From a virus: a stretch of 64,000 nucleotides of DNA. The translations under genes and the position numbers were made by a program. The stretch spans positions 39,501 to 103,500 of IMG/VR virus record IMGVR_UViG_3300018080_000129. The stretch is one strand, 5' to 3'. A model generated the notes under the pieces. That model did not search any database. It saw nothing but the letters and a program-made list of their open reading frames with translations, and was not told where the DNA came from. This document shows, piece after piece, positions 7,388 through 57,515 of the stretch (its first letter is position 1; every line of letters begins with the position of its first letter).

Positions 7388-7466
7388 TAAACTACCTCCT
7401 TTTGAACTGCGACAAACAAGAAAGAGACGAATATATTCCGTGTGGAGAAACTACGCTACCCAATAT

Positions 7467-7490
7467 AATAATGAAATGATAAAAAAATTG
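7467..7490 (-). promoter_or_regulatory. putative phage late promoter (motif copy)
   Basis: CAATTTTTTTATCATTTCATTATT upstream of the scaffold/capsid block. Confidence 0.55.
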
Positions 7491-7587
7491 TTCAAAATAA
7501 ATCACAGTGTAAAATACAATGTAAGTTGGTGTGAATAAACACTTTAATGTGTGGAAACCTGCCAAAAATTATCGGTGGCTGGTTTTT

Positions 7588-8615: not shown

Positions 8616-10904
8616 CTAATAATGTCCGTAAAAGTCTGCGGCTACCCGTTTCGCCATTGCCTGCCTGCGAAGCCGTTTCATTTCCTTCAACGTCACGCGC
8701 AACGCAAGCATTCCACTTTTATCCGCTACTCTCATGTGCTCCAGATTCTCGAATATTTCCTCAATCGTCCTATTTGGAATTGCAAGAATGCTGGCAGCCT
8801 TTTTCTCGTCCTCAAGCTGGCTCACAAAATGATTCAGCACCGCTCCCTTGAAAGCTGGTTTGGCTACCCAGGAAGCTTCAATGAATCTGAGAGACTCAGG
8901 GTCGCCTACCAGTTTGCCAGTCGAATCCTTATACGTCCTGCCGCAAAGCTCCGCAACAATGCGCTTCTTGCCGTCCTTGTCCGTGTAATAAGAAAGAAGC
9001 TCCGTCTTCAAATGGATACAGGTATCATCGTTGTCGGTAAACTCTTTGCCACACTTCGAGCACGTCACAATATGGGCAAGGCAGTTTTCGGCTCCAATAC
9101 CGCCACCAACTGTCAGACTGTGTTCTTCTTCTACTTCAAGACAATACACATACATCTTCTCGTTTACATCACTTATAGGTCGAACCTGTTCCACCTTTTT
9201 GATTCGACACATTACAAAATCATCCGATAATTGTTTGTGGAAACGTTTGTGTATTTTCCTTGGGTCGCCATCTGCCCAACGAGTCGTATATGGCGTTACT
9301 TTGCAAACAACCGAAGAAGGCACCGTGATATAATGTGCGGCTCTGTGCGCAACAATTATATCGCCCTGTTTTGTTTCGTGTGCTTCGTTGACCTTCCAAG
9401 AATGATACACACCTATCCGAGTAAGCATTAAACTCAATTGGCTGGCAAGTTTTGGACTTACAGTGGCACCAACAAGCCGTCCACGATTCTTCTTATCCAA
9501 ACAACCATCGCCATCAAACCAAGCACCTACAAGCGCACGAATAGCTGGAAGAGGCCACGAAACTACATCTTCAGTAACTTCTTTACCCCAAGAATAATGA
9601 CCACCATGATTCTTAAACCAATTCACAACATCTTCATTCCAGGCCGTTCGAATTTGACATTGTTTTGATTTTTTCCGCACATACAAAGAAGCGTTGACGT
9701 TAAATTCCTCCTTCAACAATTTTTGCGTTTCTCTTGCAAGCGTTTCTCTTTCGTCAATACTATAAGAAAATTCAACACAACGATATTTTCCCTTCTGTTT
9801 TACAAGATTTCCTTCGGCAAGATATAATCCCAAAAGCCTTGCTTTACCTGTCGAAATACTCTCCGAAGAAATCTCGTACTTACAAGGCATTGTAAGAAAA
9901 TCGCCTTTTTCAAGTTTACATGCTTCTTTCCAACTGAATTTTGGTTTTAATGCTTCTTTTAATGCTGCTTGACGTTGTTGCTTTTTCTCTGGACTATATG
10001 TAATCATAGGATTAAGAATACGAAGTTGATGTCCAGAAAGAAATGCCGCTTGAATAGTTCTACGAGATTTTTCTGCATTGTCCTCTAAGGGCAAGCCACA
10101 ACCACAACTACATTCATCTCGTCTTGTCAACGCCCAAAACTTATGATTTCCAGTACAAATAATTGGGTCAGGCCTTCCATCTATCCAAATCTTATAAATA
10201 TCACCGAACCAATGCGTTTTAATAGGACGTGTTACTTCACGAGCAAAACCACGATGCGTAATGACCTTCTCGCCCTTTTCAACCGTCTCAATAGACTTTT
10301 GAGTTCCATCAGACATTGTAACTAATGTGCCTCTTTGAAAACAACCCATCGAAAGCGTGTCCATCTCGCTGGACTCTATCCTTCTTATGAGGTCAGAATG
10401 CCTGCGATTCGTAGCGACAAGAATGTCTACATACTTGACATTCGCCTTCTTGCCATTCTTACCGACATAGATAACAGGCCGGACAACGGCATCCAGAATT
10501 TTTCCCTTGGAAAGTTCTGGAACCTGAATATGTTCTTCATAGTTTTCCGCACCAATGAAAGAGCGAAAAGTGGCAAGAAGAACAGGCTCCGTCCAGCCAT
10601 TGCCATTGTTATTGATAAGCTCATCACAGGGAGGAATAATGCGATAGCCGTCATCTTCGACGTTGACCGAACTGATAATCGAACAATGAGTGAAAAGATA
10701 ATCGCTAAGATTATACTTGCTCCAGTCAACTTCTATCTTCCTATCGCTGGCAATGCGCATATTGCCTCTGGTGAGCGCAAGCCAGTCTCTTTCAGGATGC
10801 CGAAGAACCTGAACCACGGGCGCATTGATGTCAAAGGCCCGCGATTTCTGACTGGCAATCAGAAGACATTGGTTGGAAGTGCAGCGTCTTTGCATGTTAT
10901 TCAT
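8616..10904 (-). CDS. probable prohead maturation protease containing an intein
   Basis: Extein has N-x-N-G-N-G-W, EH, GKILDAV, TLSMG|C...TCSKCG...CIHL and FIEASWVAKPAF motifs. Located between portal and scaffold genes. Confidence 0.65.
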   Translation of the reverse strand: MNNMQRRCTSNQCLLIASQKSRAFDINAPVVQVLRHPERDWLALTRGNMRIASDRKIEVDWSKYNLSDYLFTHCSIISSVNVEDDGYRIIPPCDELINNNGNGWTEPVLLATFRSFIGAENYEEHIQVPELSKGKILDAVVRPVIYVGKNGKKANVKYVDILVATNRRHSDLIRRIESSEMDTLSMGCFQRGTLVTMSDGTQKSIETVEKGEKVITHRGFAREVTRPIKTHWFGDIYKIWIDGRPDPIICTGNHKFWALTRRDECSCGCGLPLEDNAEKSRRTIQAAFLSGHQLRILNPMITYSPEKKQQRQAALKEALKPKFSWKEACKLEKGDFLTMPCKYEISSESISTGKARLLGLYLAEGNLVKQKGKYRCVEFSYSIDERETLARETQKLLKEEFNVNASLYVRKKSKQCQIRTAWNEDVVNWFKNHGGHYSWGKEVTEDVVSWPLPAIRALVGAWFDGDGCLDKKNRGRLVGATVSPKLASQLSLMLTRIGVYHSWKVNEAHETKQGDIIVAHRAAHYITVPSSVVCKVTPYTTRWADGDPRKIHKRFHKQLSDDFVMCRIKKVEQVRPISDVNEKMYVYCLEVEEEHSLTVGGGIGAENCLAHIVTCSKCGKEFTDNDDTCIHLKTELLSYYTDKDGKKRIVAELCGRTYKDSTGKLVGDPESLRFIEASWVAKPAFKGAVLNHFVSQLEDEKKAASILAIPNRTIEEIFENLEHMRVADKSGMLALRVTLKEMKRLRRQAMAKRVAADFYGHY
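9084..10343 (-). mobile_element. intein with LAGLIDADG homing endonuclease (420 aa)
   Basis: Starts CFQRGTLVTMSDG, block B CTGNHKF, LGLYLAEG and AWFDGDG motifs, ends VYCLEVEEEHSLTVGGGIGAEN followed by Cys+1. AT-richer than its flanks. Confidence 0.85.
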
Positions 10905-21800: not shown

Positions 21801-22053
21801 AAAACTCGGTTTCAGTGAAACGATAGAGAACCTTGTCATTGACAACATTGGGTACGACAATCGTTTTGTTTTTGTCATCTAACTCCAGACCATAGAATGC
21901 CTTCACAACGAATCCCTGGACTGGACGAGGAGTGACATTCAACCCCCAAGGAGAAGTAATAAAAGTCATCGCATCGACAACATCTTCCGTATTGCCGGAG
22001 AGAAACGACTCGGCAAGCTGTTTCAAGGAATCGTCTTTTTTGGCCGTTACCAT
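18880..22053 (-). CDS. terL: terminase large subunit containing an intein
   Basis: Walker A AGRRGGK|S split by the intein, Walker B VIMDEMA, CISSP motif, nuclease YFMGIDMG...HDDISDA. Confidence 0.92.
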   Translation of the reverse strand: MVTAKKDDSLKQLAESFLSGNTEDVVDAMTFITSPWGLNVTPRPVQGFVVKAFYGLELDDKNKTIVVPNVVNDKVLYRFTETEFLDWLWNEGRINTTELSGKNFRQLILVAGRRGGKCRYEKDIVATTKGSMEFGELLCRKQKNERVGIITYDPRYLKRNITYDFSIWHNGIRACRRIQTKRGIAEISSLNHPYLVWRDDWEEPQFVKLSDVKIGDKIAVAKENSLFGEGNVGIDKAKLLGYLQGDGATTESATFVSASKRQAAEFGKLITVNFPKYHLKIYNRKNYCNHYQVVKDSGKKAQDGSRDNLFVKWLKRHDCHGHKAVEKRVPKCILRGSRGEISAFLSRLFACDGWATVEKVARKSHSLSKVSVGYCSSSYRLIDDVRHLLLKFGIHSILRPKKTKCNGKSFDSYFLEIQSSDSIITFAREIGIYTKEKALQKVLSVVSKRVLSKNEFFSVPRGIWKYIKKVQKRKGLTNADVHGFHGHYQQEKLRLGYSPSRRKVAMYGQNLGDKFVYSFGTSDVYWDKVKKIEDVGELPTIDLNVKGTHIIGGDLLSHNSSLCSWISDYELYKLLKRGDPSKYYGFQPESKIAVMNVAPTDEQAQILFGMAQNAATSCSFFRGRIKNATQQYFNLQTDADLKSTKAKKPASLVAIAGGCASNGLRGHNAICVIMDEMAFFISNAGRFSGQEIYKALTPSTATFRQDGKVICISSPYAKYGAFWDRYVQSYEETDVTLMMKFYSALMNPEVDSVLLKTERRRNNHQFMCEYGGEFSDNIVAWIEDEDAFRKCITIKNPPTRGVPGTEYFMGIDMGLKNDGTAITIVHRDRKSKKVILDYAEVFYSASSDVWDSERTLYKDCGRMSNRDILSVEEVAKEIQELCKWWPCKSGWFDQWNGYSLLEILHNMNLKQFRMESVTDKLNNDMYQIVKMLYMDGLVELFDHPVLVPELLSLEAEKKSRNKILVRAPNKRGAHDDISDAFVRAVYEVYNTTRERPEYVSLGISRDGSTYGGMGATAKNATMSTFRMDRMRKHGEIEKRKIPDKIKHLARSRVRISR
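20377..21702 (-). mobile_element. intein with LAGLIDADG homing endonuclease (442 aa)
   Basis: Starts CRYEKD, block B SLNHPY, LGYLQGDG and LFACDG motifs, ends DLNVKGTHIIGGDLLSHN followed by Ser+1. Confidence 0.9.
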
Positions 22054-22658
22054 TAGCTGCCTACTTTCAAGGCATGTTCAATTTCTTCCTTGACCTCGCG
22101 CTTCCAATCAATCAGTTCATCCCCAAGCATTCGAAAAAACACATCACGCTGCTCGTCTGAATACTTCAAGTGAAAAAGAACTTTTTGCGCTTTTTCCATG
22201 AAGTATTTGAAAATGACAAGCATCGAAGGAGACTCAACATTGACACCGCTCTGGTGCTCTTCCGTTTGTTTCGATTGAACGGTCTTGAAGACCCTCTCAA
22301 GAACCTCGGCTCTTTTGGACGAGATGATAGTCGCATCCCTGAGTGCGCCATTTCTCGTGGCAATAAGCTCATTGCCAAGAAGATTATCTGTCTCCTTAAT
22401 AACCTCTTCGATAATTACTCGGAGGAGACTATTATAATCCTCTTTTCCCTGTTTGTGGAGCCGCTCGATGAGACCTTCGGCTCCCTCATGGTAGTCTCTG
22501 ATGAGCTTTCTTCGATGCTCCAGCATGTTTTCAACAGGGGCGGGCACATTATTGCTCGGCCCTTCTGCCGTAGCGTCCACCTTGACCACATCGAACGTCT
22601 CGTCTGCGTCTACAAATTCATCTTCTTCGGGCATGGGAGATTCCTCATTCAAAATCAA
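22053..22658 (-). CDS. helical protein, candidate terminase small subunit
   Basis: Position (coupled to terL) and size only. Confidence 0.35.
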   Translation of the reverse strand: MILNEESPMPEEDEFVDADETFDVVKVDATAEGPSNNVPAPVENMLEHRRKLIRDYHEGAEGLIERLHKQGKEDYNSLLRVIIEEVIKETDNLLGNELIATRNGALRDATIISSKRAEVLERVFKTVQSKQTEEHQSGVNVESPSMLVIFKYFMEKAQKVLFHLKYSDEQRDVFFRMLGDELIDWKREVKEEIEHALKVGS

Positions 22659-35885: not shown

Positions 35886-37685
35886 TTAGAACTTCTGGCG
35901 AATCTGCTCGATGGTGGGAATCTCTTCCTCAGCCATCACGCCTTCGGTCTGCAACAGCATTTGGATGATTTTCTCGCTGAAACCTCCAACGAGATTGACC
36001 TTCTCCTTCTTTTCATCTACAATACTGTCACCATAACCATGCAGATTGACAGAGTGCAGCCACGTATTGGCAGACTGCTTGCTTCTTTTGTAACGCTGCC
36101 ATGCGTCTGCCACATTGCTGCTGCTGCCACCATACCCATAACCATAACCGTCCGTCCAGCACTGCATATCGCTGAGCAGAATAATTCGGTCAGGATGCGC
36201 ATTCTTCCTAATCAAATACTCAAAGCAAAGATGTCCATTCGTGCTGCATCCATTCGTATTGGCATTCGCCAGCTTCTTTACCATCTCCATCACGCTCGTG
36301 CGCTTCGTGTAGGAAACAGGCGCAACAGCCGTGGCGAATGCGGCCACAATGGACTTCTCCGAACGCTTCGCACAAATTGCCGCCAGTGTGTTCGCAGCGT
36401 TCTTGCAGGACATCTTGCTTCTGTCTGACACAGCAGACTCCATCGAGCCACTGTTATCCGCGAAGACTGCGGTCTCGCCAGTCAGAAAAGGCACGTTCTC
36501 GCAAGCCGCCTCAGCCGCATCCTCGATGGCTTCCAGCACAGTCTTCAGCTTGGAGTCATCAATCGTTTCCCGCTCATCCTCATAGCCGTAACCGTAGCCA
36601 TGCTGAGAGCCAAAACCCTGAAGCATCTCGTAAGCCATCGTGAAACGGAAAGGCAATTGCTTGCTCCGCAGCACTTCTTCCTTGTCCGACAACTTCTTCG
36701 CCACAGCGTCGATGACTTTGGAACTTACATCTGTTTTCATCAAGTTCCGCAGATTCCGCAAAAGGGCCATATACCCGACCAGATTCTTCTCAATCAGGTA
36801 TTCCCATACTTCGCGCTTGGTTTTGTCATCGCGGCCAAACTGAGAAAGCACAACTTCCCAATTCGCCAATGACTTCGCAACAAGCTCCTTGGCCTTTTTG
36901 TCGAATTTCTCCTGCTTCGTCATTTCCCTACGAGCGAAAGCGACAGGAGTTCCCTCTTCGTCCACTTCGCCTTTGATGAAATACTTGCAAACCGCATCAG
37001 GAAGAGGATAATCCTTCTTTCTCTTCCTCACAAGCCGGAGTACATCCTTGAAAGTAGGATAGCCAGGGCTATCATACTTCATCAGGCCGCGCTCATTGAA
37101 CTTGTGAAGAGCGTCTCCAATTCCACGGCTCAAGCAGTTCTTGAGGCTCTTGCTGCCAAAGAAATACTTGTGCAGGGCCACGACCGTCTTGACCTCATCA
37201 GGACGCCGGATAATTTTCGTAGCATACTGGCGCACATACTCCTGACAATTCTCATGGGCCGAAGCCAGCACGAGAAGAACTTGAGGAGTGAGACGAATGT
37301 TCATCTCATTGCGCAGCCAGTTCGCGATTGCCAGCGCGTCACGGGGATTCTCCGTACCCATGATGTCTACCGCCGTAGCGATAACTTCCTGAGCCACGTC
37401 GTCCAAATCACCAGCATCGACAAACTTGGCCTTTTCCCTGACAATGCGCAGCCTCTCAGCCAACTTGGAGTATTTTCCAGCCGCCCCCCTCTTCGCCACA
37501 ACGGAATCACCATTGTAGTATCGAGGTTCGGAAAAAAAGGAGCCTCCCGTCATGGTAATCAGCTTCGTAGCAGGGCACTGAATCTCAAAAGCCACACCGC
37601 CTGCCCTGTTGACTGTGGCATTCGCAGCCTTCGAAGCTTTGTTCTTACCAACTCTCGACTTTAGTTTCTTCTTCATTGTTCCCAT
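35886..37685 (-). CDS. TROVE-domain RNA-binding protein (Ro60/Rsr-like) with vWA domain
   Basis: VNRAGGVAF, LRNEMNIR, IIRRPDE, GYMALLRNLRN, SKQLPFRF, MIDAS DNSGSM, IILLSDMQ, VNLHGYG, GFSEK. Confidence 0.9.
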   Translation of the reverse strand: MGTMKKKLKSRVGKNKASKAANATVNRAGGVAFEIQCPATKLITMTGGSFFSEPRYYNGDSVVAKRGAAGKYSKLAERLRIVREKAKFVDAGDLDDVAQEVIATAVDIMGTENPRDALAIANWLRNEMNIRLTPQVLLVLASAHENCQEYVRQYATKIIRRPDEVKTVVALHKYFFGSKSLKNCLSRGIGDALHKFNERGLMKYDSPGYPTFKDVLRLVRKRKKDYPLPDAVCKYFIKGEVDEEGTPVAFARREMTKQEKFDKKAKELVAKSLANWEVVLSQFGRDDKTKREVWEYLIEKNLVGYMALLRNLRNLMKTDVSSKVIDAVAKKLSDKEEVLRSKQLPFRFTMAYEMLQGFGSQHGYGYGYEDERETIDDSKLKTVLEAIEDAAEAACENVPFLTGETAVFADNSGSMESAVSDRSKMSCKNAANTLAAICAKRSEKSIVAAFATAVAPVSYTKRTSVMEMVKKLANANTNGCSTNGHLCFEYLIRKNAHPDRIILLSDMQCWTDGYGYGYGGSSSNVADAWQRYKRSKQSANTWLHSVNLHGYGDSIVDEKKEKVNLVGGFSEKIIQMLLQTEGVMAEEEIPTIEQIRQKF

Positions 37686-37763: not shown

Positions 37764-37813
37764 CTGCGTCCCGCCAGCAGACAGAATCTAATGGCGGCAA
37801 TGAAAAGAAATCT

Positions 37814-37881
37814 GAGTACCAATAAGCGCAGTAGCGGTTTCTTTCTCTATGATAGAAGTATGCCACTGCTGGAGCGTACTC
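37814..37881 (-). ncRNA. Y-RNA-like motif, copy in TROVE leader
   Basis: GAGTAC-GCTCCA-GCAGTGGC-ATACTTC...GCTACTGC-GCTTATTG-GTACTC; same scaffold as the three copies at 51874-52439. Confidence 0.7.
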
Positions 37882-37912
37882 TTTTCAATCCACACACTTT
37901 TATAAGTGCGAC
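37882..37912 (-). CRISPR. solitary type I-C-like CRISPR repeat
   Basis: GTCGCACTTATAAAAGTGTGTGGATTGAAAA: 5' GTCGCAC, hairpin, 3' GTGGATTGAAA. Confidence 0.65.
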
Positions 37913-44969: not shown

Positions 44970-47900
44970 TTAGAAGAACCTAAATGAATGGAGTCTTGCT
45001 TTTGAAGAACCACCAGCATCCTTCATCACCTGAATTTCAAAAATTGCTGCATCTGCTGGCAGGTTCGTCAACGTTGTGTCTTCATAAATTGCCATTACAT
45101 CTGATGTCCAAGAAATACTGGCAATCTCATTGTTATTTGTCACGTCATAAACTCGAAGCGTTACTGTTCCACTTGTTCCATTTCTTGAAGCAATAATGTT
45201 CATCGTAGTTGCTGTAACTTCGTTTGTCCCATTATACCAAAATTCTGCCGCTGCTTGCCATGTTGTAGAATTATACTCAACATAAGCTGTTGATGAAGTA
45301 TAGAACGACGTGCAAAACAAAGCACGTGAGTAAGACAAATCAGTGCCTTGATAACCCTGATTGCCTTGGTTGCCCTGCCAACCCTGATTACCTTGAAATC
45401 CTCTAAAACCTTGCCAACCTTGGAATCCTCTAAAACCTTGCCAACCCTGATTTCCTTGAGGGCCAACAATTCCTTGCCAACCTTGATTCCCCTGATAACC
45501 AATATCACCCTGCCAACCTTGCGCTCCCTGATTTCCAGTCTCACCTACTTCGCCTTGGAAACCTTGCCAACCTTGATTTCCTTGAGAACCCGTATCGCCT
45601 ATATTACCTTGCGGCCCTTGCCAGCCCTGATTACCCTGTACGCCATCAGAGCCTATGTCACCTTGTGGCCCCTGTACGCCATCGGCTCCCACGTCACCCT
45701 GCCAACCCTGATTTCCTTGGACACCAGTGTCACCGATGTCACCCTGATTTCCCTGATAACCAATGTCACCCTGATTTCCTTGAACGCCAGTATCACCAAT
45801 GTCACCTTGCGGCCCTTGTACTCCTATTTCTCCTTGTAAACCTTGCCAGCCTTGATTTCCTTGATTACCCTGAACACCATCAGAACCTATGTCACCCTGT
45901 GGCCCTTGAACACCGTCAACCCCAATGTCGCCTTGTGCGCCTTGATAACCAATATCTCCTTGATTACCTTGATTGCCTTGGACACCGATTTCGCCTACAT
46001 CTCCTTGGAATCCTTGGTCGCCTTGATAACCTATGTCACCCTGCCAACCCTGATTGCCTTGAACCCCCGTATTACCAGTGTCACCCTGAAGTCCTTGCCA
46101 ACCTTGTGGCCCCTGAACACCATCAACACCGATGTCACCTTGCCAACCCTGAACACCTTGTACGCCTGTTTCACCTACATCGCCCTGATTTCCTTGGCGT
46201 CCCTGATTCCCTTGCGTTCCATCAATACCTTGGTCGCCCTGCCAACCCTGATTACCCTGAAAACCAACATCTCCCTGATTTCCTTGGACACCAGTTTCGC
46301 CTATGTCACCTTGCGGCCCTTGAACGCCGTCAACACCAATGTCACCCTGTGGCCCTTGGACGCCAGTATCACCTATATCACCTTGTGGCCCTTGTGTGCC
46401 CGTGTCACCAGTGTCACCCTGAAGCCCTTGCCAACCCTGTGCGCCTTGCAAACCAGTATCGCCAACATTACCCTGATTGCCTTGCGCACCCTGAACACCT
46501 GTATCGCCAGTGTTTCCTACATTTCCTTGTGGGCCTTGAACACCCGTATCACCAGTATTTCCTACTTCACCTTGTGGGCCTTGTACTCCCTGAACACCAT
46601 CAGAACCAATATTGCCTTGCCAACCTTGACTGCCTTGATTTCCTTGTACGCCGTCAGAGCCGATGTCACCTTGTGGGCCTTGAACACCGTCAACACCGAT
46701 GTCTCCCTGCCAGCCCTGATTGCCTTGTACGCCGTCAGCACCAACGTCTCCTTGGAATCCTTGGTCGCCTTGATAACCTATATCACCTTGCCAACCCTGA
46801 TTTCCTTGAACACCCGTATCACCAGTATCACCCTGTAAACCTTGTGGGCCTTGGAAACCAATATCGCCCTGATTGCCTTGGACACCATCTTGTCCTACAT
46901 CACCCTGCCAACCTTGAACACCTTGGAAACCAGTATCGCCCACATCGCCCTGATTTCCCTGTACGCCTTGAACACCGTCAAGACCAATCGCACCTTGAAA
47001 TCCTTGACGACCTTGATTTCCTTGTGGGCCTATATCTCCTATGTCACCCTGATTGCCCTGAACACCGTCATTACCCTGCGGCCCCTGAACACCGTCAGCA
47101 CCGATGTCACCTTGGAATCCTTGTTCGCCTTGCCATCCTTGTGGGCCTTGCCATCCTTGCGGTGAGTAACCCTGTGGCCCCAAGTAACCCTGATTGCCCT
47201 GATAACCTTGAGAGCCAACATCACCCTGAAAACCTTGCGTTCCATCAATACCGGCAGGCCCTTGAGAACCCTGATTTCCCGTCCCTTCAATACCTTGTGG
47301 GCCTATGTCACCCTGCCAGCCCTGATTGCCTTGGACACCCGTATCACCAGTATCACCCTGTAAACCTTGTGGGCCTTGGAAACCAGTATCACCAACATCC
47401 CCCTGATTACCTTGGACACCCTGAATCCCTGTGTCCCCTACCGCACCTTGACTTCCTTGGCGTCCTTGATTTCCTTGAACTCCATCTTGTCCTACATCAC
47501 CCTGCCAACCTTGAACACCTTGTACGCCGTCAGCACCAATATTTCCTTGTGGCCCTTGAACTCCATCAGCACCAACATCACCCTGTGGCCCTTGAACACC
47601 GTCAATACCGATGTCTCCCTGTGGCCCTTGAACCCCGTCAATACCGATGTCACCTTGAGGCCCTTGAACTCCATCGGCACCGATGTCTCCCTGTGGCCCC
47701 TGAACACCGTCAATACCGATGTCTCCCTGTGGCCCCTGAACACCGTCAATACCGATGTCACCTTGATTTCCCTGTGCGCCCTGAACGCCAATTCCAATTG
47801 CGCCTTGCCAACCTTGCCAACCCTGATTACCCTGAACACCATCCTGTCCTACGTCTCCCTGCCAACCTTGAGCACCTTGAAGACCAGCAGAGCCTACATC

Positions 47901-50036
47901 GCCCTGATTTCCTTGGCGTCCCTGATTCCCTTGCGTTCCATCAATACCTTGGTCGCCCTGCCAACCTTGAACACCCTGTACGCCATCAGAGCCTATGTCA
48001 CCTTGTGGCCCCTGTACGCCATCGGCTCCCACGTCACCCTGTGGCCCTTGAACACCGTCAGAACCCGTGTTTCCTTGAAATCCTTGGTCGCCCTGCCAAC
48101 CTTGAACACCCTGTACGCCATCAGAGCCTATGTCACCTTGATTTCCTTGGAAACCAGTCTCTCCTTGCACACCCTGAACACCAGTATCGCCAATGCTACC
48201 TTGAAAACCTTGACGGCCTTGCGCACCTTGGTTTCCAGTAACACCTACAGCACCTTGATTACCTTGCGCCCCTTGTACGCCATCAAAGCCAATGTCACCT
48301 TGGAATCCTTGTGCCCCTTGTACGCCGTCAAAACCTATATCTCCCTGATTGCCTTGGTTGCCCTGAACACCATCAATGCCTTGGTCGCCCTGCCAGCCCT
48401 GTGCGCCCTGAACACCTGTTCCCTGATAGCCCTGTGCTCCTTGGAAACCAATATCACCCGCGACACCCTGATTTCCTTGAACACCATCGACGCCAATATC
48501 TCCCTGCCAACCTTGAACTCCTTGCGCTCCAGTATCGCCAATGGCTCCCTGATTACCCTGACGACCTTGAAAACCATCGGCACCATCTGCACCAATATCT
48601 CCCTGATTACCCTGATTTCCCTGAACACCATCGACACCAATGTCTCCTTGTGGGCCTTGAACACCATCAGAACCGATGTCTCCCTGTACGCCCTGAACAC
48701 CATCGGCTCCGATGTTTCCTTGTGGGCCTTGAACACCATCGGCTCCGATGTCTCCTTGTGGGCCTTGCCTTCCTTGCGCTCCTGTGTCACCCGCGTTACC
48801 CTGAAATCCCTGACGACCCTGATTGCCTTGAACTCCGTCGGCTCCGATATTCCCCTGCGGGCCTTGCCAACCTTGAGGAGAGTATCCTTGTGGCCCTAAG
48901 TAACCCTGATTGCCCTGATAACCTTGTGAACCAACATCGCCCTGAGCACCCTGCGTTCCATCAATACCGGCAGGCCCTTGAGAACCTTGCTGTCCTATGC
49001 CAACATTACCCTGATTTCCCTGTGGGCCAAGGTCGCCAACATCTCCTTGATTTCCCTGTACCCCATCATTACCTTGCGGGCCGACATCTCCAAGACCCTG
49101 CCAACCTTGAGCACCTTGAACTCCATCAACGCCTATATCTCCTTGCGGGCCTTGAACACCGTCAACACCGATGATTCCTTGATTGCCCTGCCAACCTTGA
49201 TTTCCTTGAGCACCTGTCTGCCCGACGTTTCCTTGGCTCCCCTGCCATCCCTGAACACCCGTGTCGCCAATGGCTCCCTGATTGCCTTGCCGTCCCTGAT
49301 TTCCCTGAACACCATCCGCTCCAGTGTTTCCTTGCGGGCCTTGAACGCCATCGACGCCAACCGGCCCCTGCCAACCCTGATTTCCCTGCGCTCCGAGAGT
49401 GCCCGCCCCATAATCGTACCAGATAACATCCAGAAAATGATTCCAATCGAGGTTTTTGAACATCCTCGATACAGCAACAAAAGCAAGGTCGATGTCGGCA
49501 GTCGAAGTGAAATTGTAAGCGGATTCAACACCGCCATTCCACGTGTACCAGCCTATCGTGTAAGTGCCAGCAGCGAAACTCAAACGACCGTAAACCGCAT
49601 TACCGCTGCCGTCGGTTATCGGGTCGCCGGAATCATGGTCTCGAATGAAAATACGATAAGCTCTGGTCGAGTCAACGATGACGCCTTCAACCGTCGAGGA
49701 ACCTTGACCATTGTTATGATTCGTGATGCCTTTAATCGCACCATCAAACACGGTCGTGCTGGTTCCCGCTCCTATCGTGACGTTCTCAAAAGCGGCTTGA
49801 TGCAACGCCTCCATCAGGAACTTGTCAGCCAGTTCCTTCATGGAAAGTTCGGCAGGGTCATACCAATCGGGTTCTCCAATGAGATTTTTCAGGAGTGTGC
49901 GCAAGACATTCAAGTCGCCTTCAATATTGACTTGGCCTTCCGCGACAGCCACAGTATGAACGGCTGCAATCGTGTCATCGTAAGTTGCCGAAGCCGCAAC
50001 CTGAATTGCCTGTCTGAGAATGCTCGTATCACCCAT
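44970..50036 (-). CDS. collagen-like fibre protein (1688 aa)
   Basis: About 1350 aa of near-continuous Gly-X-Y (GxQ alternating with GD[IVT]) between globular N- and C-terminal domains. Confidence 0.9.
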   Translation of the reverse strand: MGDTSILRQAIQVAASATYDDTIAAVHTVAVAEGQVNIEGDLNVLRTLLKNLIGEPDWYDPAELSMKELADKFLMEALHQAAFENVTIGAGTSTTVFDGAIKGITNHNNGQGSSTVEGVIVDSTRAYRIFIRDHDSGDPITDGSGNAVYGRLSFAAGTYTIGWYTWNGGVESAYNFTSTADIDLAFVAVSRMFKNLDWNHFLDVIWYDYGAGTLGAQGNQGWQGPVGVDGVQGPQGNTGADGVQGNQGRQGNQGAIGDTGVQGWQGSQGNVGQTGAQGNQGWQGNQGIIGVDGVQGPQGDIGVDGVQGAQGWQGLGDVGPQGNDGVQGNQGDVGDLGPQGNQGNVGIGQQGSQGPAGIDGTQGAQGDVGSQGYQGNQGYLGPQGYSPQGWQGPQGNIGADGVQGNQGRQGFQGNAGDTGAQGRQGPQGDIGADGVQGPQGNIGADGVQGVQGDIGSDGVQGPQGDIGVDGVQGNQGNQGDIGADGADGFQGRQGNQGAIGDTGAQGVQGWQGDIGVDGVQGNQGVAGDIGFQGAQGYQGTGVQGAQGWQGDQGIDGVQGNQGNQGDIGFDGVQGAQGFQGDIGFDGVQGAQGNQGAVGVTGNQGAQGRQGFQGSIGDTGVQGVQGETGFQGNQGDIGSDGVQGVQGWQGDQGFQGNTGSDGVQGPQGDVGADGVQGPQGDIGSDGVQGVQGWQGDQGIDGTQGNQGRQGNQGDVGSAGLQGAQGWQGDVGQDGVQGNQGWQGWQGAIGIGVQGAQGNQGDIGIDGVQGPQGDIGIDGVQGPQGDIGADGVQGPQGDIGIDGVQGPQGDIGIDGVQGPQGDVGADGVQGPQGNIGADGVQGVQGWQGDVGQDGVQGNQGRQGSQGAVGDTGIQGVQGNQGDVGDTGFQGPQGLQGDTGDTGVQGNQGWQGDIGPQGIEGTGNQGSQGPAGIDGTQGFQGDVGSQGYQGNQGYLGPQGYSPQGWQGPQGWQGEQGFQGDIGADGVQGPQGNDGVQGNQGDIGDIGPQGNQGRQGFQGAIGLDGVQGVQGNQGDVGDTGFQGVQGWQGDVGQDGVQGNQGDIGFQGPQGLQGDTGDTGVQGNQGWQGDIGYQGDQGFQGDVGADGVQGNQGWQGDIGVDGVQGPQGDIGSDGVQGNQGSQGWQGNIGSDGVQGVQGPQGEVGNTGDTGVQGPQGNVGNTGDTGVQGAQGNQGNVGDTGLQGAQGWQGLQGDTGDTGTQGPQGDIGDTGVQGPQGDIGVDGVQGPQGDIGETGVQGNQGDVGFQGNQGWQGDQGIDGTQGNQGRQGNQGDVGETGVQGVQGWQGDIGVDGVQGPQGWQGLQGDTGNTGVQGNQGWQGDIGYQGDQGFQGDVGEIGVQGNQGNQGDIGYQGAQGDIGVDGVQGPQGDIGSDGVQGNQGNQGWQGLQGEIGVQGPQGDIGDTGVQGNQGDIGYQGNQGDIGDTGVQGNQGWQGDVGADGVQGPQGDIGSDGVQGNQGWQGPQGNIGDTGSQGNQGWQGFQGEVGETGNQGAQGWQGDIGYQGNQGWQGIVGPQGNQGWQGFRGFQGWQGFRGFQGNQGWQGNQGNQGYQGTDLSYSRALFCTSFYTSSTAYVEYNSTTWQAAAEFWYNGTNEVTATTMNIIASRNGTSGTVTLRVYDVTNNNEIASISWTSDVMAIYEDTTLTNLPADAAIFEIQVMKDAGGSSKARLHSFRFF
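45345..49400 (-). repeat. collagen Gly-X-Y coding repeat with internal block duplications
   Basis: 9-bp periodicity; the block GSQGPAGIDGTQG...GYLGPQGYSPQGWQGPQG appears twice (about 47140-47280 and 48860-49000). Confidence 0.9.
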
Positions 50037-51697: not shown

Positions 51698-51774
51698 TGG
51701 TAGCGGGAGTCGGATTCGAACCGACGACCTTGAGGTTATGGGCCTCACGAGCTACCAGACTGCTCCATCCCGCA
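51698..51774 (-). tRNA. tRNA-fMet(CAU)
   Basis: TGCGGGATGGAGCAGTCTGGTAGCTCGTGAGGCCCATAACCTCAAGGTCGTCGGTTCGAATCCGACTCCCGCTACCA; 1:72 mismatch, initiator-type D arm. Confidence 0.92.
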
Positions 51775-51788
51775 CCATTCCAATCAAA

Positions 51789-51862
51789 TCTCTCACTGGC
51801 CGAAGATAACCATCTCAGGCGTGTGAGGAGGACGAAAGAGAGGAGTATCAACCAGTGAGAGA
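51789..51862 (-). ncRNA. stem-loop RNA with pyrimidine-rich loop
   Basis: TCTCTCACTGGTTGA...TCGGCCAGTGAGAGA 15-bp closing stem. Confidence 0.5.
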
Positions 51863-51873
51863 AAGTAAAAGAA

Positions 51874-51969
51874 GATTCAGTACCGATGGTCGAAGAGAGA
51901 ACATACGTGGTAAACCACGTCTCAATATAGATTGAATTGAAGTAACTCTCTTCTGGAGCGTACTGACTC
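51874..51969 (-). ncRNA. Y-RNA-like motif, copy with two small hairpins
   Basis: TCAGTAC-GCTCCA-GAAGAGAG-TTACTTC...CTCTCTTC-GACCATCG-GTACTGA. Confidence 0.7.
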
Positions 51970-52005: not shown

Positions 52006-52037
52006 CTTTCAACCCACACTTTCGCAAGGAAAGTGAA
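52006..52037 (-). CRISPR. solitary type I-C-like CRISPR repeat
   Basis: TTCACTTTCCTTGCGAAAGTGTGGGTTGAAAG: 32 nt, 7-bp hairpin, 3' TGGGTTGAAAG tail. Confidence 0.45.
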
Positions 52038-52043
52038 AAGAAA

Positions 52044-52180
52044 GCCGATACCAATAGTCGCAAAGAGAAATTTTACGTGTGCTATCTTTTACACTACTCC
52101 CCATCAAAGTTGGGGAGGCAGGAGTTGCACCTGCACCACGTCCGTATGATGGAAGTAACTCTTCGCTGGAGCGTATCGGT
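52044..52180 (-). ncRNA. YrlA-like Y RNA with circularly permuted tRNA domain
   Basis: Shared scaffold enclosing T arm GCAGG-TGCAACT-CCTGC, loop-closed acceptor stem CTCCCCA/TGGGGAG, TA linker and D arm GTG...CAC. Confidence 0.8.
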
Positions 52181-52201: not shown

Positions 52202-52439
52202 TTCGATACCTAAGGTCGAATAGAGGATTACGCTACACAGCGTAGTGCCGTCTCTCCAGCAATGTCACCGTTCTTTCACGGTCTGTCGTCGGATACTTTG
52301 ACCCGCAGTCAGCGAAACTTTCCTCGCAGCCATCATGGGTTTTAGCCCATGAGCAAAGCCCGTCTTTCCGAGCATGTCAGGAGTTCCACTCCTTTTCACA
52401 TAATCAATGTGAAGTATCTCTACTCTGGAGCGTATCGAA
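52202..52439 (-). ncRNA. Y-RNA-like motif, copy enclosing nine hairpins
   Basis: TTCGATAC-GCTCCA-GAGTAGAG-ATACTTC...CTCTATTC-GACCTTAG-GTATCGAA. Confidence 0.7.
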
Positions 52440-52489: not shown

Positions 52490-52518
52490 ATTATACCATT
52501 TTCGACAGACTTTTTCAA
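52490..52518 (-). promoter_or_regulatory. sigma70-type promoter of the RNA operon
   Basis: TTGAAA-17 nt-TATAAT with extended -10 TG. Confidence 0.75.
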
Positions 52519-57159: not shown

Positions 57160-57515
57160 TGGTGGAGGCGGCGAGGAGTCGCACCTCGCGTCCAGTGGTG
57201 CTCTCGATAGGGCGTCTACACGCTTATCCAGTTGATTCTATATCTCGGCTCATCTGGCAAGCCTCAGGCGGCTGTTTACCCGCCACGTCAGGCCGTCTTT
57301 CCAGCCTGCCAACCTGTCTTTCCAAGCTGCCAGCCCTTGTGTCGTACCCTATTCCCGCTTACTAAGGACGAATCTCAACGGTTTTGGGGCTGCCTAAGCA
57401 GCGATTCTGTAGGAGTTGCCAAGTAAATGGCATAGTCGGCTTTTTACGAGGCCAACCGACCAACCTCGACGTGCAGCCATTCTCGATACGCATCCTGTCG
57501 ATACTACGCGCCCCC
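57160..57515 (-). ncRNA. ssrA: tmRNA
   Basis: 5' GGGGGCG...TCGAC; 3' GCGAGG-TGCGACT-CCTCGC-CGCCTCCACCA with G3:U70; internal tag frame GNSYRIAA* at 57394..57420; 356 nt. Confidence 0.92.

What the first reader, a model, noticed from the sequence alone, without database searches (positions are those of the whole stretch)
52044..52180. Circularly permuted tRNA mimic (YrlA architecture) inside one copy
Seen, 5' to 3': ACGTG, T arm (GCAGG TGCAACT CCTGC), acceptor stem closed by a 7-nt loop (CTCCCCA ACTTTGA TGGGGAG), TA, D arm (GTG...CAC), ACGT. There is no anticodon loop and no CCA; the scaffold stem takes the place of the anticodon arm. Known: this is the topology of bacterial YrlA Y RNAs, which is the strongest support for calling the family Y RNAs. 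Inference: an elbow mimic or decoy for tRNA-targeting enzymes or toxins.
Basis: partly seen in the sequence, partly recalled or inferred. Interest (0 to 1): 0.75.

Follow-up and report, generated by a model that had tools for sequence, protein, structure and literature searches.

The report
Phage Y RNA with tRNA-shaped module
This is a real small RNA gene of a known kind: a YrlA-type Y RNA, the partner RNA of the ring protein Ro60, which carries a sealed, back-to-front tRNA look-alike and sits in a large uncultured phage that also encodes Ro60 and five sibling RNAs.

Summary

**Anatomy.** A 7-bp terminal stem, an asymmetric internal loop and a 7-bp second stem form a "handle". The handle carries a 4-bp closing helix, a T arm, a 7-bp acceptor-like hairpin closed by a 7-nt loop, UA and a D arm. 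There is no anticodon loop and no free CCA.

**Statistical support.** A strict search for this permuted layout hits once in the window and never in 200 shuffles.

**Comparative support.**
- Twelve such RNAs from this phage and three related Ro60-encoding phage records show compensatory changes in 24 of 30 pairs.
- The Levitt 15:48 pair covaries in all nine that could be parsed.
- A model built from them also finds Ro60-adjacent RNAs in bacteria.

**Genomic context.** The record is a 103.5-kb fragment of a large phage with 30 tRNAs and a tmRNA. It encodes an intact Ro60 (TROVE+vWA) and six RNAs with this handle, one of them directly upstream of Ro60.

**Classification.** YrlA-type Y RNAs, including phage ones, were described in 2014, so this is a new member of a known kind.

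**Two local twists.**
- This copy has a G55/A18 elbow, which real tRNAs of this phage and of other fetched contigs also use.
- Its variable and T arms closely match a tRNA-Ile(UAU) on a metagenome contig.

The decoy idea is untested. This scan has reported similar phage Ro60 RNA arrays on other DNA.

The parts
52045..52179 (-). Y-2, the finding: a complete YrlA-type Y RNA made of a handle plus a sealed permuted tRNA-like module
   Evidence: Own model R1 scores 117.9 bits. Rfam YrlA aligns full length at 20.1 bits. Fold.
52159..52179 (-). 5' half of the handle: stem 1 strand (52179-73), conserved loop GCUCCAG (52172-66), stem 2 strand (52165-59)
   Evidence: Shared by six copies in the record. 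Both stems covary.
52045..52067 (-). 3' half of the handle: stem 2 strand (52067-61), 9-nt loop beginning CGAC (52060-52), stem 1 strand (52051-45)
52135..52158 (-). UUACUUC (the YUAY motif plus UUC), a variable-arm-like hairpin, the 5' strand of the closing helix (ACGU, 52141-38) and the variable loop ending in U48 (52135)
   Evidence: MFE fold. Closing helix present with different sequences in 8 of 8 parsed relatives. About 31/36 identity to the variable arm plus T arm of a tRNA-Ile(UAU) on a metagenome contig.
52118..52134 (-). T arm: 5-bp stem, loop UGCAACU (U54 G55 C56 A57 A58)
52097..52117 (-). Acceptor-like stem of 7 bp closed by the loop ACUUUGA
   Evidence: The same loop occurs in sibling Yc. 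The same heptamer follows the acceptor stem of the tRNA-Ile(UAU) genes in L272 and L264.
52075..52096 (-). U8-A9, D arm (4-bp stem, loop AAAAGAUA) and the 3' strand of the closing helix (ACGU, 52078-75)
52490..52518 (-). Sigma-70-type promoter (TTGAAA, 17 nt, TATAAT, with TG upstream) in front of the RNA operon
   Evidence: 11 of 12 consensus matches. It is preceded by the terminator of the upstream gene at 52556-52534.
52203..52438 (-). Y-3: the same handle carrying a 185-nt multi-hairpin cargo
51877..51966 (-). Y-1: the same handle carrying a short 39-nt cargo
   Evidence: R1 scores 51.8 bits.
51698..51774 (-). tRNA-Met(CAT), last gene of the operon
37813..37882 (-). Y-a: a minimal Y RNA with its own promoter and terminator, about 130 nt upstream of the Ro60 start codon
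   Evidence: R1 scores 48.4 bits.
35886..37685 (-). Phage Ro60 gene, 599 aa, with TROVE and Ro60-type vWA domains
   Evidence: More than 350 homologues. Matches the solved Ro60 of Thermus phage phiLo, 9KOP/9L5Y.

Best explanation
Y-2 is a YrlA-type Y RNA.

**Shown**
- It lies in a promoter-led minus-strand operon in the order Y-3, Y-2, Y-1, tRNA-Met.
- Its 5' and 3' ends pair into a conserved two-helix handle with an asymmetric internal loop.
- The handle carries a closed, circularly permuted tRNA-like domain: closing helix, variable loop, T arm, sealed 7-bp acceptor stem, U8-A9, D arm.
- Every helix and the Levitt 15:48 pair covary across related phages.
- The same phage encodes an intact Ro60.

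**Inferred**
- The handle binds the phage Ro60 ring. This is by analogy with Xenopus, Deinococcus, Salmonella and Thermus phage phiLo.
- The L-shaped module at the far end is the effector end. It most likely tethers Ro60 to a protein that reads the tRNA elbow or the T/D arms. The best-precedented partner is the host 3'-5' exoribonuclease PNPase, giving a RYPER-like particle that degrades structured RNA. Alternatively the RNA gates access to the Ro60 ring.
- The six handles with different cargos would give one Ro60 several alternative adaptors.

**What is special about Y-2**
- Its elbow is the G55/A18-G19 variant rather than U55/G18-G19.
- It therefore cannot receive pseudouridine 55.
- It may be read by a different set of partners than its canonical sibling Yc.
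- With a 7-bp acceptor stem, discriminator A and a tRNA-type trailer in the loop, it may also be cut there by RNase P or Z, as Mycobacterium smegmatis YrlA is.
For: **Architecture**
- Sequence and MFE fold.
- Rfam YrlA aligns end to end.
- Strict layout 1 hit against 0 in 200 shuffles.

**Comparative**
- Alignment of 12 tRNA-like Y RNAs from four phage records: RNAalifold recovers stem 1, stem 2, T, acceptor and D helices. 24 of 30 pairs show compensatory change.
- 93.8% of cells are paired against 68% in shuffles, with 0 of 500 shuffles reaching this. Slid controls give 40-50%.
- Levitt pair is A:U in 5 and G:C in 4 of the 9 cleanly parsed sequences. Closing helices differ in sequence.

**Family and context**
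- Six handle copies in the record.
- One copy sits directly 5' of the Ro60 gene.
- Ro60 has TROVE+vWA domains.
- Ro60 homologues at about 50% identity in 15 IMG/VR records have the same handle upstream on the same strand.
- Model R1 finds the family in 13 of 15 records.
- R1 also finds Ro60-adjacent, same-strand RNAs in Clostridia, Bacteroidota, Bacillus, Limnohabitans and other bacteria at 50-89 bits.

**Elbow variant is natural**
- Two tRNA-Lys of this phage have G55 together with A18-G19.
- Among 226 tRNAs in the fetched loci, 21 UGC-loop and 2 AGC-loop tRNAs have AG and no GG in the D loop. 141 UUC-loop tRNAs have GG.

**Precedent**
- PMC4201824: YrlA in 254 bacteria and 22 phages, modified by TruB and DusA, and RNase P cleavage of a 7-bp-stem YrlA.
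- 10.1101/312249: crystal structure showing the L-shape.
- PMC12135203: phage Ro60 + Yrl RNAs + host PNPase complex in vitro.
Against: - No expression, end-mapping, binding or probing data exist for this uncultured phage.
- Y-2 lies 14.4 kb from Ro60, not within the roughly 4 kb typical of published YrlA genes.
- The published 5' motif GNCGAAN0-1G is replaced by GCUCCAG.
- The Rfam YrlA score is far below the cut-off.
- The MFE fold prefers a variable-arm hairpin that competes with the closing helix.
- The PNPase partner is pure analogy. In D. radiodurans, deleting the T arm did not change complex assembly (PMC4201824).
- The tRNA sample behind the elbow statistic is biased, because many loci were fetched with a T-arm pattern.
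Confidence: 0.75

Rival explanations
1. Decoy or sponge. The sealed tRNA-like module titrates a host factor that recognises the tRNA elbow or T/D arms, such as a defence nuclease, a modification enzyme or RNase P. This would protect the phage's 30 tRNAs. Ro60 would only stabilise the RNA.
For: - The phage invests heavily in tRNAs and a tmRNA.
- Y RNAs are embedded in, or co-transcribed with, tRNA genes.
- Y-2 shares the unusual G55/A18 elbow with the phage's own tRNA-Lys genes.
Against: - There is no anticodon loop and no free CCA. The targets of anticodon nucleases and of toxins acting on the 3' end are therefore absent.
- The conserved Ro60-type handle and the Ro60 gene point to an RNP, not a free decoy.
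- No defence or toxin partner is identified.
Confidence: 0.12
2. Processed two-piece RNA. RNase P and/or RNase Z cut the acceptor loop, as in M. smegmatis YrlA. This yields a nicked tRNA-like body with a trimmed, CCA-tailed 3' end, and that processed form is the active species. This adds to the Ro60-partner role and does not exclude it.
For: - The acceptor stem is 7 bp, and the loop starts with a discriminator-like A.
- The loop ACUUUGA is identical to the sequence following the acceptor stem of the tRNA-Ile(UAU) genes in L272 and L264.
- RNase P cleaves the 7-bp-stem YrlA of M. smegmatis, and CCA is then added (PMC4201824).
Against: - Most YrlA RNAs are thought to stay closed (10.1101/312249).
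- Loop length and sequence are not conserved in relatives, ranging from 4 to 34 nt.
- No processing data exist.
Confidence: 0.2
3. Evolutionary relic. A decaying remnant of a tandem tRNA duplication, carried along in the operon without a function of its own.
For: - The variable arm plus T arm are about 86% identical to a tRNA-Ile(UAU) on a metagenome contig.
- The T and D loops depart from the canonical tRNA consensus.
Against: - All 30 consensus pairs are intact in Y-2.
- The Levitt pair, U8, A14, A21, U54 and A58 are kept.
- The loop changes are the coordinated G55/A18 combination used by working tRNAs.
- The handle is intact and conserved.
- Homologous tRNA-like Y RNAs persist in related phage records whose Ro60 proteins are only about 50% identical.
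Confidence: 0.04

Closest known systems
YrlA (Y RNA-like A) of bacteria and phages; Rfam RF02553; Chen et al. 2014 (PMC4201824); structure 6CU1 (10.1101/312249)
   Same: - A terminal stem with an asymmetric internal loop.
- The YUAY motif after the second stem.
- A variable arm or loop, then T arm, closed acceptor-like stem, UA, D arm and closing helix, in that order.
- Levitt-pair covariation.
- Same strand as a Ro60 gene.
- Some members lie next to tRNA genes.
- Already reported in phages.
   Different: - The 5' loop motif is GCUCCAG, or GCUUCAG in relatives, not GNCGAAN0-1G.
- The Rfam score is 20 bits against a cut-off of 69.
- It lies 14.4 kb from Ro60.
- The elbow has G55 and A18 instead of U55 and G18.
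- It is one of six handle-sharing RNAs with different cargos.
Thermus phage phiLo Ro60 with Yrl1 and Yrl2 (PMC12135203; PDB 9KOP, 9L5Y)
   Same: - A phage-encoded Ro60 with more than one Y-like RNA encoded upstream.
- The Ro60 of this window matches that protein by sequence (E = 5e-12).
- That system provides the precedent for recruiting host PNPase.
   Different: - The phiLo RNAs were defined by a stem-bulge-stem and a CGAA motif. In the passages I read, no tRNA-like module is described for them.
- The present phage has six RNAs in three places in the genome.
Deinococcus radiodurans Yrn1 with Rsr and PNPase (RYPER)
   Same: A Y RNA with a Ro60-binding stem and a T-arm-like effector end that tethers an exoribonuclease.
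   Different: - Yrn1 has the arms in a different order.
- It lacks a full D arm.
- It keeps both strands of the metazoan-type Ro60 site (PMC4201824).
Tymovirus tRNA-like structure (Rfam RF00233)
   Same: The same T arm loop UGCAACU. It is the best sub-threshold Rfam match over the T arm region (26.2 bits).
   Different: - The score is below the cut-off of 40.
- The viral element is a 3'-terminal, aminoacylatable structure with a free CCA and an anticodon-domain mimic.
- The match here rests on the T arm only.

Membership tests
YrlA-type Y RNA (Chen 2014; Rfam RF02553) | 5' and 3' ends pair into a long stem interrupted by an internal loop (the Ro60-binding module) | tested here: met
   7-bp stem 1, a 6-7 / 8-9 nt internal loop, and a 7-8 bp stem 2. 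Both stems covary in 12 sequences.
YrlA-type Y RNA (Chen 2014; Rfam RF02553) | T stem-loop, then acceptor-like stem-loop, then D stem-loop, enclosed by a closing helix, with no anticodon loop | tested here: met
   Sequence. Rfam YrlA alignment over positions 1-114. Covariation. Strict-pattern test.
YrlA-type Y RNA (Chen 2014; Rfam RF02553) | Tertiary-fold signatures: UA between the acceptor and D arms, a pyrimidine ending the variable loop, and a covarying Levitt 15:48 pair | tested here: met
   Y-2 has UA, U48 and A15. Across relatives the pair is A:U in 5 and G:C in 4.
YrlA-type Y RNA (Chen 2014; Rfam RF02553) | Conserved YUAY after the handle | tested here: met
   UUAC at 52158-52155. The extended motif WUACUUC is present in all six copies and in relatives.
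YrlA-type Y RNA (Chen 2014; Rfam RF02553) | 5' motif GNCGAAN0-1G, the proposed Rsr contact | tested here: not met
   The conserved 5' loop is GCUCCAG here and GCUUCAG or ACUUCAG in relatives. Ro60-adjacent bacterial RNAs found with R1 also vary at this site.
YrlA-type Y RNA (Chen 2014; Rfam RF02553) | Nearly invariant tRNA-like T and D loops (U54 U55 C56 R57 A58; G18 G19) | tested here: inconclusive
   Y-2 keeps U54, C56, A57, A58, A14 and A21 but has G55 and a single G in the D loop. The same combination occurs in bona fide tRNAs. Sibling Yc is canonical.
YrlA-type Y RNA (Chen 2014; Rfam RF02553) | Encoded on the same strand as, and within about 4 kb of, a Ro60 (TROVE) gene | tested here: inconclusive
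   The strand is the same. Y-2 is 14.4 kb from the Ro60 gene. Family member Y-a is about 130 nt upstream of it.
YrlA-type Y RNA (Chen 2014; Rfam RF02553) | Score at or above the Rfam gathering threshold (69 bits) | tested here: not met
   20.1 bits; it was not listed in the whole-window scan. Ro60-adjacent bacterial YrlA-like RNAs also reach only 35-45 bits, so the model is narrow.
YrlA-type Y RNA (Chen 2014; Rfam RF02553) | Physical binding to Ro60; modification by TruB or DusA | not testable with these tools
   This needs EMSA or co-purification and modification mapping. Pseudouridine 55 is impossible in Y-2 because position 55 is G.
tRNA | Anticodon arm and a free acceptor end | tested here: not met
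   There is no anticodon loop and the acceptor stem is closed by a loop. ARAGORN and Rfam tRNA do not call it.
Tymovirus-type tRNA-like structure (RF00233) | Score above the gathering threshold (40 bits), 3'-terminal position, CCA end | tested here: not met
   26.2 bits, driven by the T arm. The element is internal and has no CCA.

The most novel reading that the evidence does not exclude
The six handle-sharing RNAs may be a set of interchangeable adaptors for one phage Ro60. Y-2 would be the adaptor carrying an 'orthogonal' tRNA elbow (A18 with G55), which the phage also gives to its own tRNA-Lys genes. On this reading the variant elbow is a deliberate recognition code. It would be invisible to, or selectively read by, a host or phage factor that inspects tRNA elbows. 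Y-2 would then couple Ro60-directed RNA decay or protection to that factor.
Probability: 0.12. Interest if true: 0.65.

Novelty: new member of a known kind. Interest (0 to 1): 0.35.

Why it matters
It adds a well-supported, covariation-backed example of YrlA-type tRNA mimicry in a clade of large uncultured phages.

- These phages carry several Y RNAs with one handle and different cargos, spread between the Ro60 gene and tRNA operons.
- Rfam's YrlA model misses this clade, and it also misses many Ro60-adjacent RNAs in bacteria.
- The near-identity of part of Y-2 to a class-II-like tRNA on a metagenome contig, including that tRNA's 3' trailer, gives unusually direct sequence support for the idea that YrlA modules arose from tandem tRNAs.
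- The G55/A18 elbow shared with working phage tRNAs is a small structural lead that can be tested.

None of this changes what is known about how Ro60-Y RNA particles work.

Tried and rejected
- **Handle pattern in IMG/VR.** It gave 64 loci, nearly all conserved coding sequence without a closing stem. I rejected them as chance matches.
- **Single-protein Ro60 search of viral contigs.** It found nothing. The alignment-based search worked.
- **The look-up of encoding contigs.** The 90%-identical Ro60 contig and other close relatives could not be fetched, so conservation of Y-2's odd loops in near relatives is untested.
- **Rfam YrlA hits in the tRNA arrays.** Most are adjacent tRNA pairs, not Y RNAs. 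Only those with a handle were kept.
- **T-arm pattern in viral contigs.** Screening with R1 gave no Y-2-like RNA.
- **T-arm pattern in metagenomes.** It returned real tRNAs with the same T arm, not Y RNAs.
- **RtcB, the partner operon in Salmonella.** It is absent from this 31%-complete record, which is uninformative.
- **Alternative identities.** Permuted tmRNA and the tymovirus TLS were considered and rejected on score and anatomy.
- **Literature search for an A18/G55 elbow.** I found no description.

Full report
**What is there**

The window is bases 39501-103500 of a 103.5-kb IMG/VR virus record estimated at 31% complete. All the features below lie on the minus strand.

Reading 52179 down to 52045 gives, in order:
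- a 7-nt stem strand;
- the loop GCUCCAG;
- a second 7-nt stem strand;
- UUACUUC;
- a small hairpin;
- ACGU;
- a three-base variable loop ending in U;
- a T arm with a 5-bp stem and loop UGCAACU;
- directly abutting it, a 7-bp hairpin closed by ACUUUGA;
- UA;
- a D arm with a 4-bp stem and loop AAAAGAUA;
- ACGU again, which pairs with the first ACGU;
- a 7-nt linker;
- the partner of stem 2;
- a 9-nt loop;
- the partner of stem 1.

There is no anticodon loop and no free CCA. ARAGORN and the Rfam tRNA model do not call it. No ORF of 60 aa or more spans it.

**Is it more than chance?**

- A strict scan for the permuted layout found one hit in the 64-kb window on both strands, at 52079-52134 (-). 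It found none in 200 dinucleotide-preserving shuffles.
- The whole RNA folds at -48.9 kcal/mol with z = -3.55. The MFE structure contains the handle, T arm, acceptor hairpin and D arm.
- The MFE prefers a variable-arm hairpin over the ACGU:ACGU closing helix. The comparative data below favour the closing helix.

- Rfam holds a YrlA model, RF02553 (114 positions, cut-off 69 bits).
- At the gathering threshold it finds nothing in the window.
- Searched on the 166 bases alone, it aligns from model position 1 to 114 at 52042-52179 (-), with each arm in the expected place. The score is only 20.1 bits, E = 0.035 for that small search.
- A second permuted tRNA-like RNA, Yc, lies at record positions 22035-22170 (-), outside the window. 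It scores 31.3 bits and has canonical T and D loops.
- Most other YrlA sub-threshold hits in this record and its relatives are simply neighbouring tRNA genes.

**Family and genomic context**

The record encodes an intact Ro60 at window 35886-37685 (-).
- It is 599 aa with a TROVE domain and a Ro60-type vWA domain.
- It has hundreds of homologues.
- It matches the solved Ro60 of Thermus phage phiLo by sequence.

Six RNAs in the record share one handle: stem 1, GCUCCAG, a 7-bp stem 2, WUACUUC, then the 3' strand of stem 2, a 9-nt loop beginning CG, and the 3' strand of stem 1.
- Three are in this operon, behind a near-consensus sigma-70 promoter at 52518-52490.
  - Y-3 carries a 185-nt multi-hairpin cargo.
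  - Y-2 is the finding.
  - Y-1 carries a 39-nt cargo.
  - tRNA-Met(CAT) follows them.
- One minimal copy, Y-a, has its own promoter and terminator about 130 nt upstream of the Ro60 start codon.
- Two copies, Y-b and Yc, sit in the array of 29 tRNA genes. Yc ends about 5 nt before tRNA-Glu.

**Relatives and covariation**

- An alignment of Ro60 homologues retrieved 15 IMG/VR loci at about 50% protein identity.
- Most of these loci carry the same handle upstream of Ro60 on the same strand, with GCUUCAG in the loop. In several it is followed by a tRNA-Met-like gene.
- Searching the whole records found further tRNA-like Y RNAs in three of them.
- Twelve such RNAs were aligned.
  - RNAalifold recovered stem 1, stem 2, the T stem, the acceptor stem and the D stem. 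24 of 30 pairs show changes on both sides.
  - 93.8% of cells form pairs, against 68.1% in column shuffles. None of 500 shuffles reached the observed values, and sliding the partners by 1-3 columns dropped pairing to 40-50%.
- In the nine cleanly parsed sequences the Levitt pair is A15:U48 five times and G15:C48 four times. The closing helix is present with different sequences each time.
- A covariance model built from this alignment (R1) scores Y-2 at 117.9 bits. Y-2 was one of the training sequences, so this score is by construction.
  - R1 also finds the short-cargo copies, and it finds the family in 13 of 15 records.
  - Run on bacterial Ro60 loci, R1 finds RNAs on the Ro60 strand next to the gene in Limnohabitans, Clostridia, Bacteroidota, Bacillus and others, at 50-89 bits. 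Many of them have the same UACUUC and CGAUUUU features.
  - Those bacterial RNAs reach only 35-45 bits on Rfam's YrlA model.
- The phage family is therefore homologous to the broad Ro60-adjacent YrlA family. The Rfam model is too narrow to serve as a membership test.

**The odd loops of Y-2**

- The cleanly parsed relatives have T loops starting UUC and D loops with GG.
- Y-2 has UGCAACU and AAAAGAUA.
- Numbered as a tRNA, it keeps U8, A14, A21, U54, C56, A57 and A58. It has G at position 55 and, most simply, A18-G19.
- This is not decay.
  - Two tRNA-Lys genes of the same phage have G55 with A18-G19.
  - Among 226 distinct tRNAs in all loci fetched, 21 with UGC T loops and 2 with AGC have AG and no GG in the D loop.
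  - 141 with UUC have GG, and only two UGC tRNAs have GG.
  - The sample is biased by my pattern searches, but the association is clear.
  - One tRNA-Arg has exactly the D loop of Y-2.
- Y-2 therefore carries a natural alternative elbow. One consequence is that TruB cannot make pseudouridine 55 in it.

**Origin**

- A metagenome scan with the T arm and acceptor-loop pattern returned real tRNAs.
- A 91-nt tRNA-Ile(UAU) with a long variable arm matches Y-2 at about 31 of 36 positions across the variable arm and T arm.
- That tRNA is followed by the same ACUUUGA that closes the acceptor stem of Y-2 and Yc.
- The loop therefore looks like a discriminator base plus a tRNA 3' trailer. This fits the published idea that YrlA modules derive from tandem tRNAs (10.1101/312249).

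**How it most likely works**

Shown:
- the anatomy;
- the conservation of the helices;
- the tertiary-pair covariation;
- the co-occurrence with Ro60.

Inferred from Xenopus, Deinococcus, Salmonella and phage phiLo (PMC4201824, 10.1101/312249, PMC12135203):
- The handle binds the phage Ro60 ring.
- The L-shaped module is the effector end. It tethers Ro60 to a protein that reads the tRNA elbow or the T/D arms, most plausibly host PNPase, or it gates the ring.
- Several cargos on one handle would give one Ro60 several adaptors.

However, without an anticodon loop or a free 3' end, it can only concern factors that read the elbow or the arms. Cleavage in the acceptor loop by RNase P or Z is a reasonable additional possibility, given the 7-bp stem (PMC4201824).

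**Comparison with what is known**

- YrlA RNAs with exactly this topology were reported in 254 bacteria and 22 phages in 2014 (PMC4201824).
- The L-shape was solved in 2018 (10.1101/312249).
- A phage Ro60 with two Y-like RNAs and host PNPase was characterised in 2025 (PMC12135203).
- Differences here:
  - the loop motif of the handle;
  - the distance from Ro60;
  - the number and variety of sibling RNAs;
  - the G55/A18 elbow.
- This scan has already reported similar phage Ro60 RNA arrays on other DNA.

**Verdict**

The YrlA reading is supported, the decoy inference is untested, and this is a new member of a known kind.

**Limits**

- There are no expression or binding data.

Noticed in passing
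window 52203-52438 (-), and L077, L079, L080 upstream of Ro60: Y-3 carries a 185-nt cargo of about seven short hairpins, several with GAAAGA-type loops. Long-cargo Y RNAs with similar GGAAAGAC or GCAAAGAC hairpins recur upstream of Ro60 in related phages. This is a conserved third cargo class of unknown role.
   Followed up: partly
G000 7465-7540 and 10261-10336 (-), outside the window: Both tRNA-Lys genes of the phage have T loops starting AGC (A54 G55) and D loops with AG instead of GG. From memory, some phage tRNA-Lys variants evade host tRNA-Lys-cleaving defences. Whether this elbow serves that purpose is untested.
   Followed up: partly
tRNAs in loci L252-L280 and others: There is a strong association between G55 (UGC T loop) and A18-G19 (AG and no GG in the D loop): 21 + 2 against 141 canonical tRNAs among 226. 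This suggests a covarying 18:55 tertiary pair. My literature search found no description. The sampling is biased.
   Followed up: partly
L272 4847-4937 (+), L264 146-236 (+), L267 1201-1291 (-): 91-nt tRNA-Ile(UAU) genes with a long, class-II-like variable arm. They have no encoded CCA and a conserved 3' trailer CUUUGAC. They sit in phage-like tRNA arrays next to YrlA-like RNAs.
   Followed up: no
window 52006-52037 (-), 37882-37912 (-): Hairpins followed by GGNUUGAAA(A)G lie just 5' of Y-1 and Y-a. Another first-reader note calls these CRISPR type I-C-like solitary repeats. Rfam listed no CRISPR repeat family here at E up to 10. I did not test the idea further.
   Followed up: no
L076, L077, L083 about 9100-9900 (+); window 51698-51966 (-): A short-cargo Y RNA followed within about 10 nt by a tRNA-Met(CAT) gene is a conserved pair upstream of Ro60 in relatives. 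In this phage the pair (Y-1 plus tRNA-Met) has moved 14 kb away from Ro60. The tRNA has an unpaired 1:72 position, which from memory is an initiator-like trait.
   Followed up: partly
G007 (IMGVR_UViG_3300029288_000063, 253 kb): 22 matches to model R1 at E <= 0.01. These include at least five tRNA-like and several short Y RNAs in clusters around 106-109 kb and 124-126 kb. This is far more Y RNAs than any published genome I know of.
   Followed up: partly
window 57160-57515 (-); 44970-50036 (-): The phage carries a tmRNA gene (88.4 bits) and a 1688-aa protein made almost entirely of collagen triple-helix repeats.
   Followed up: no
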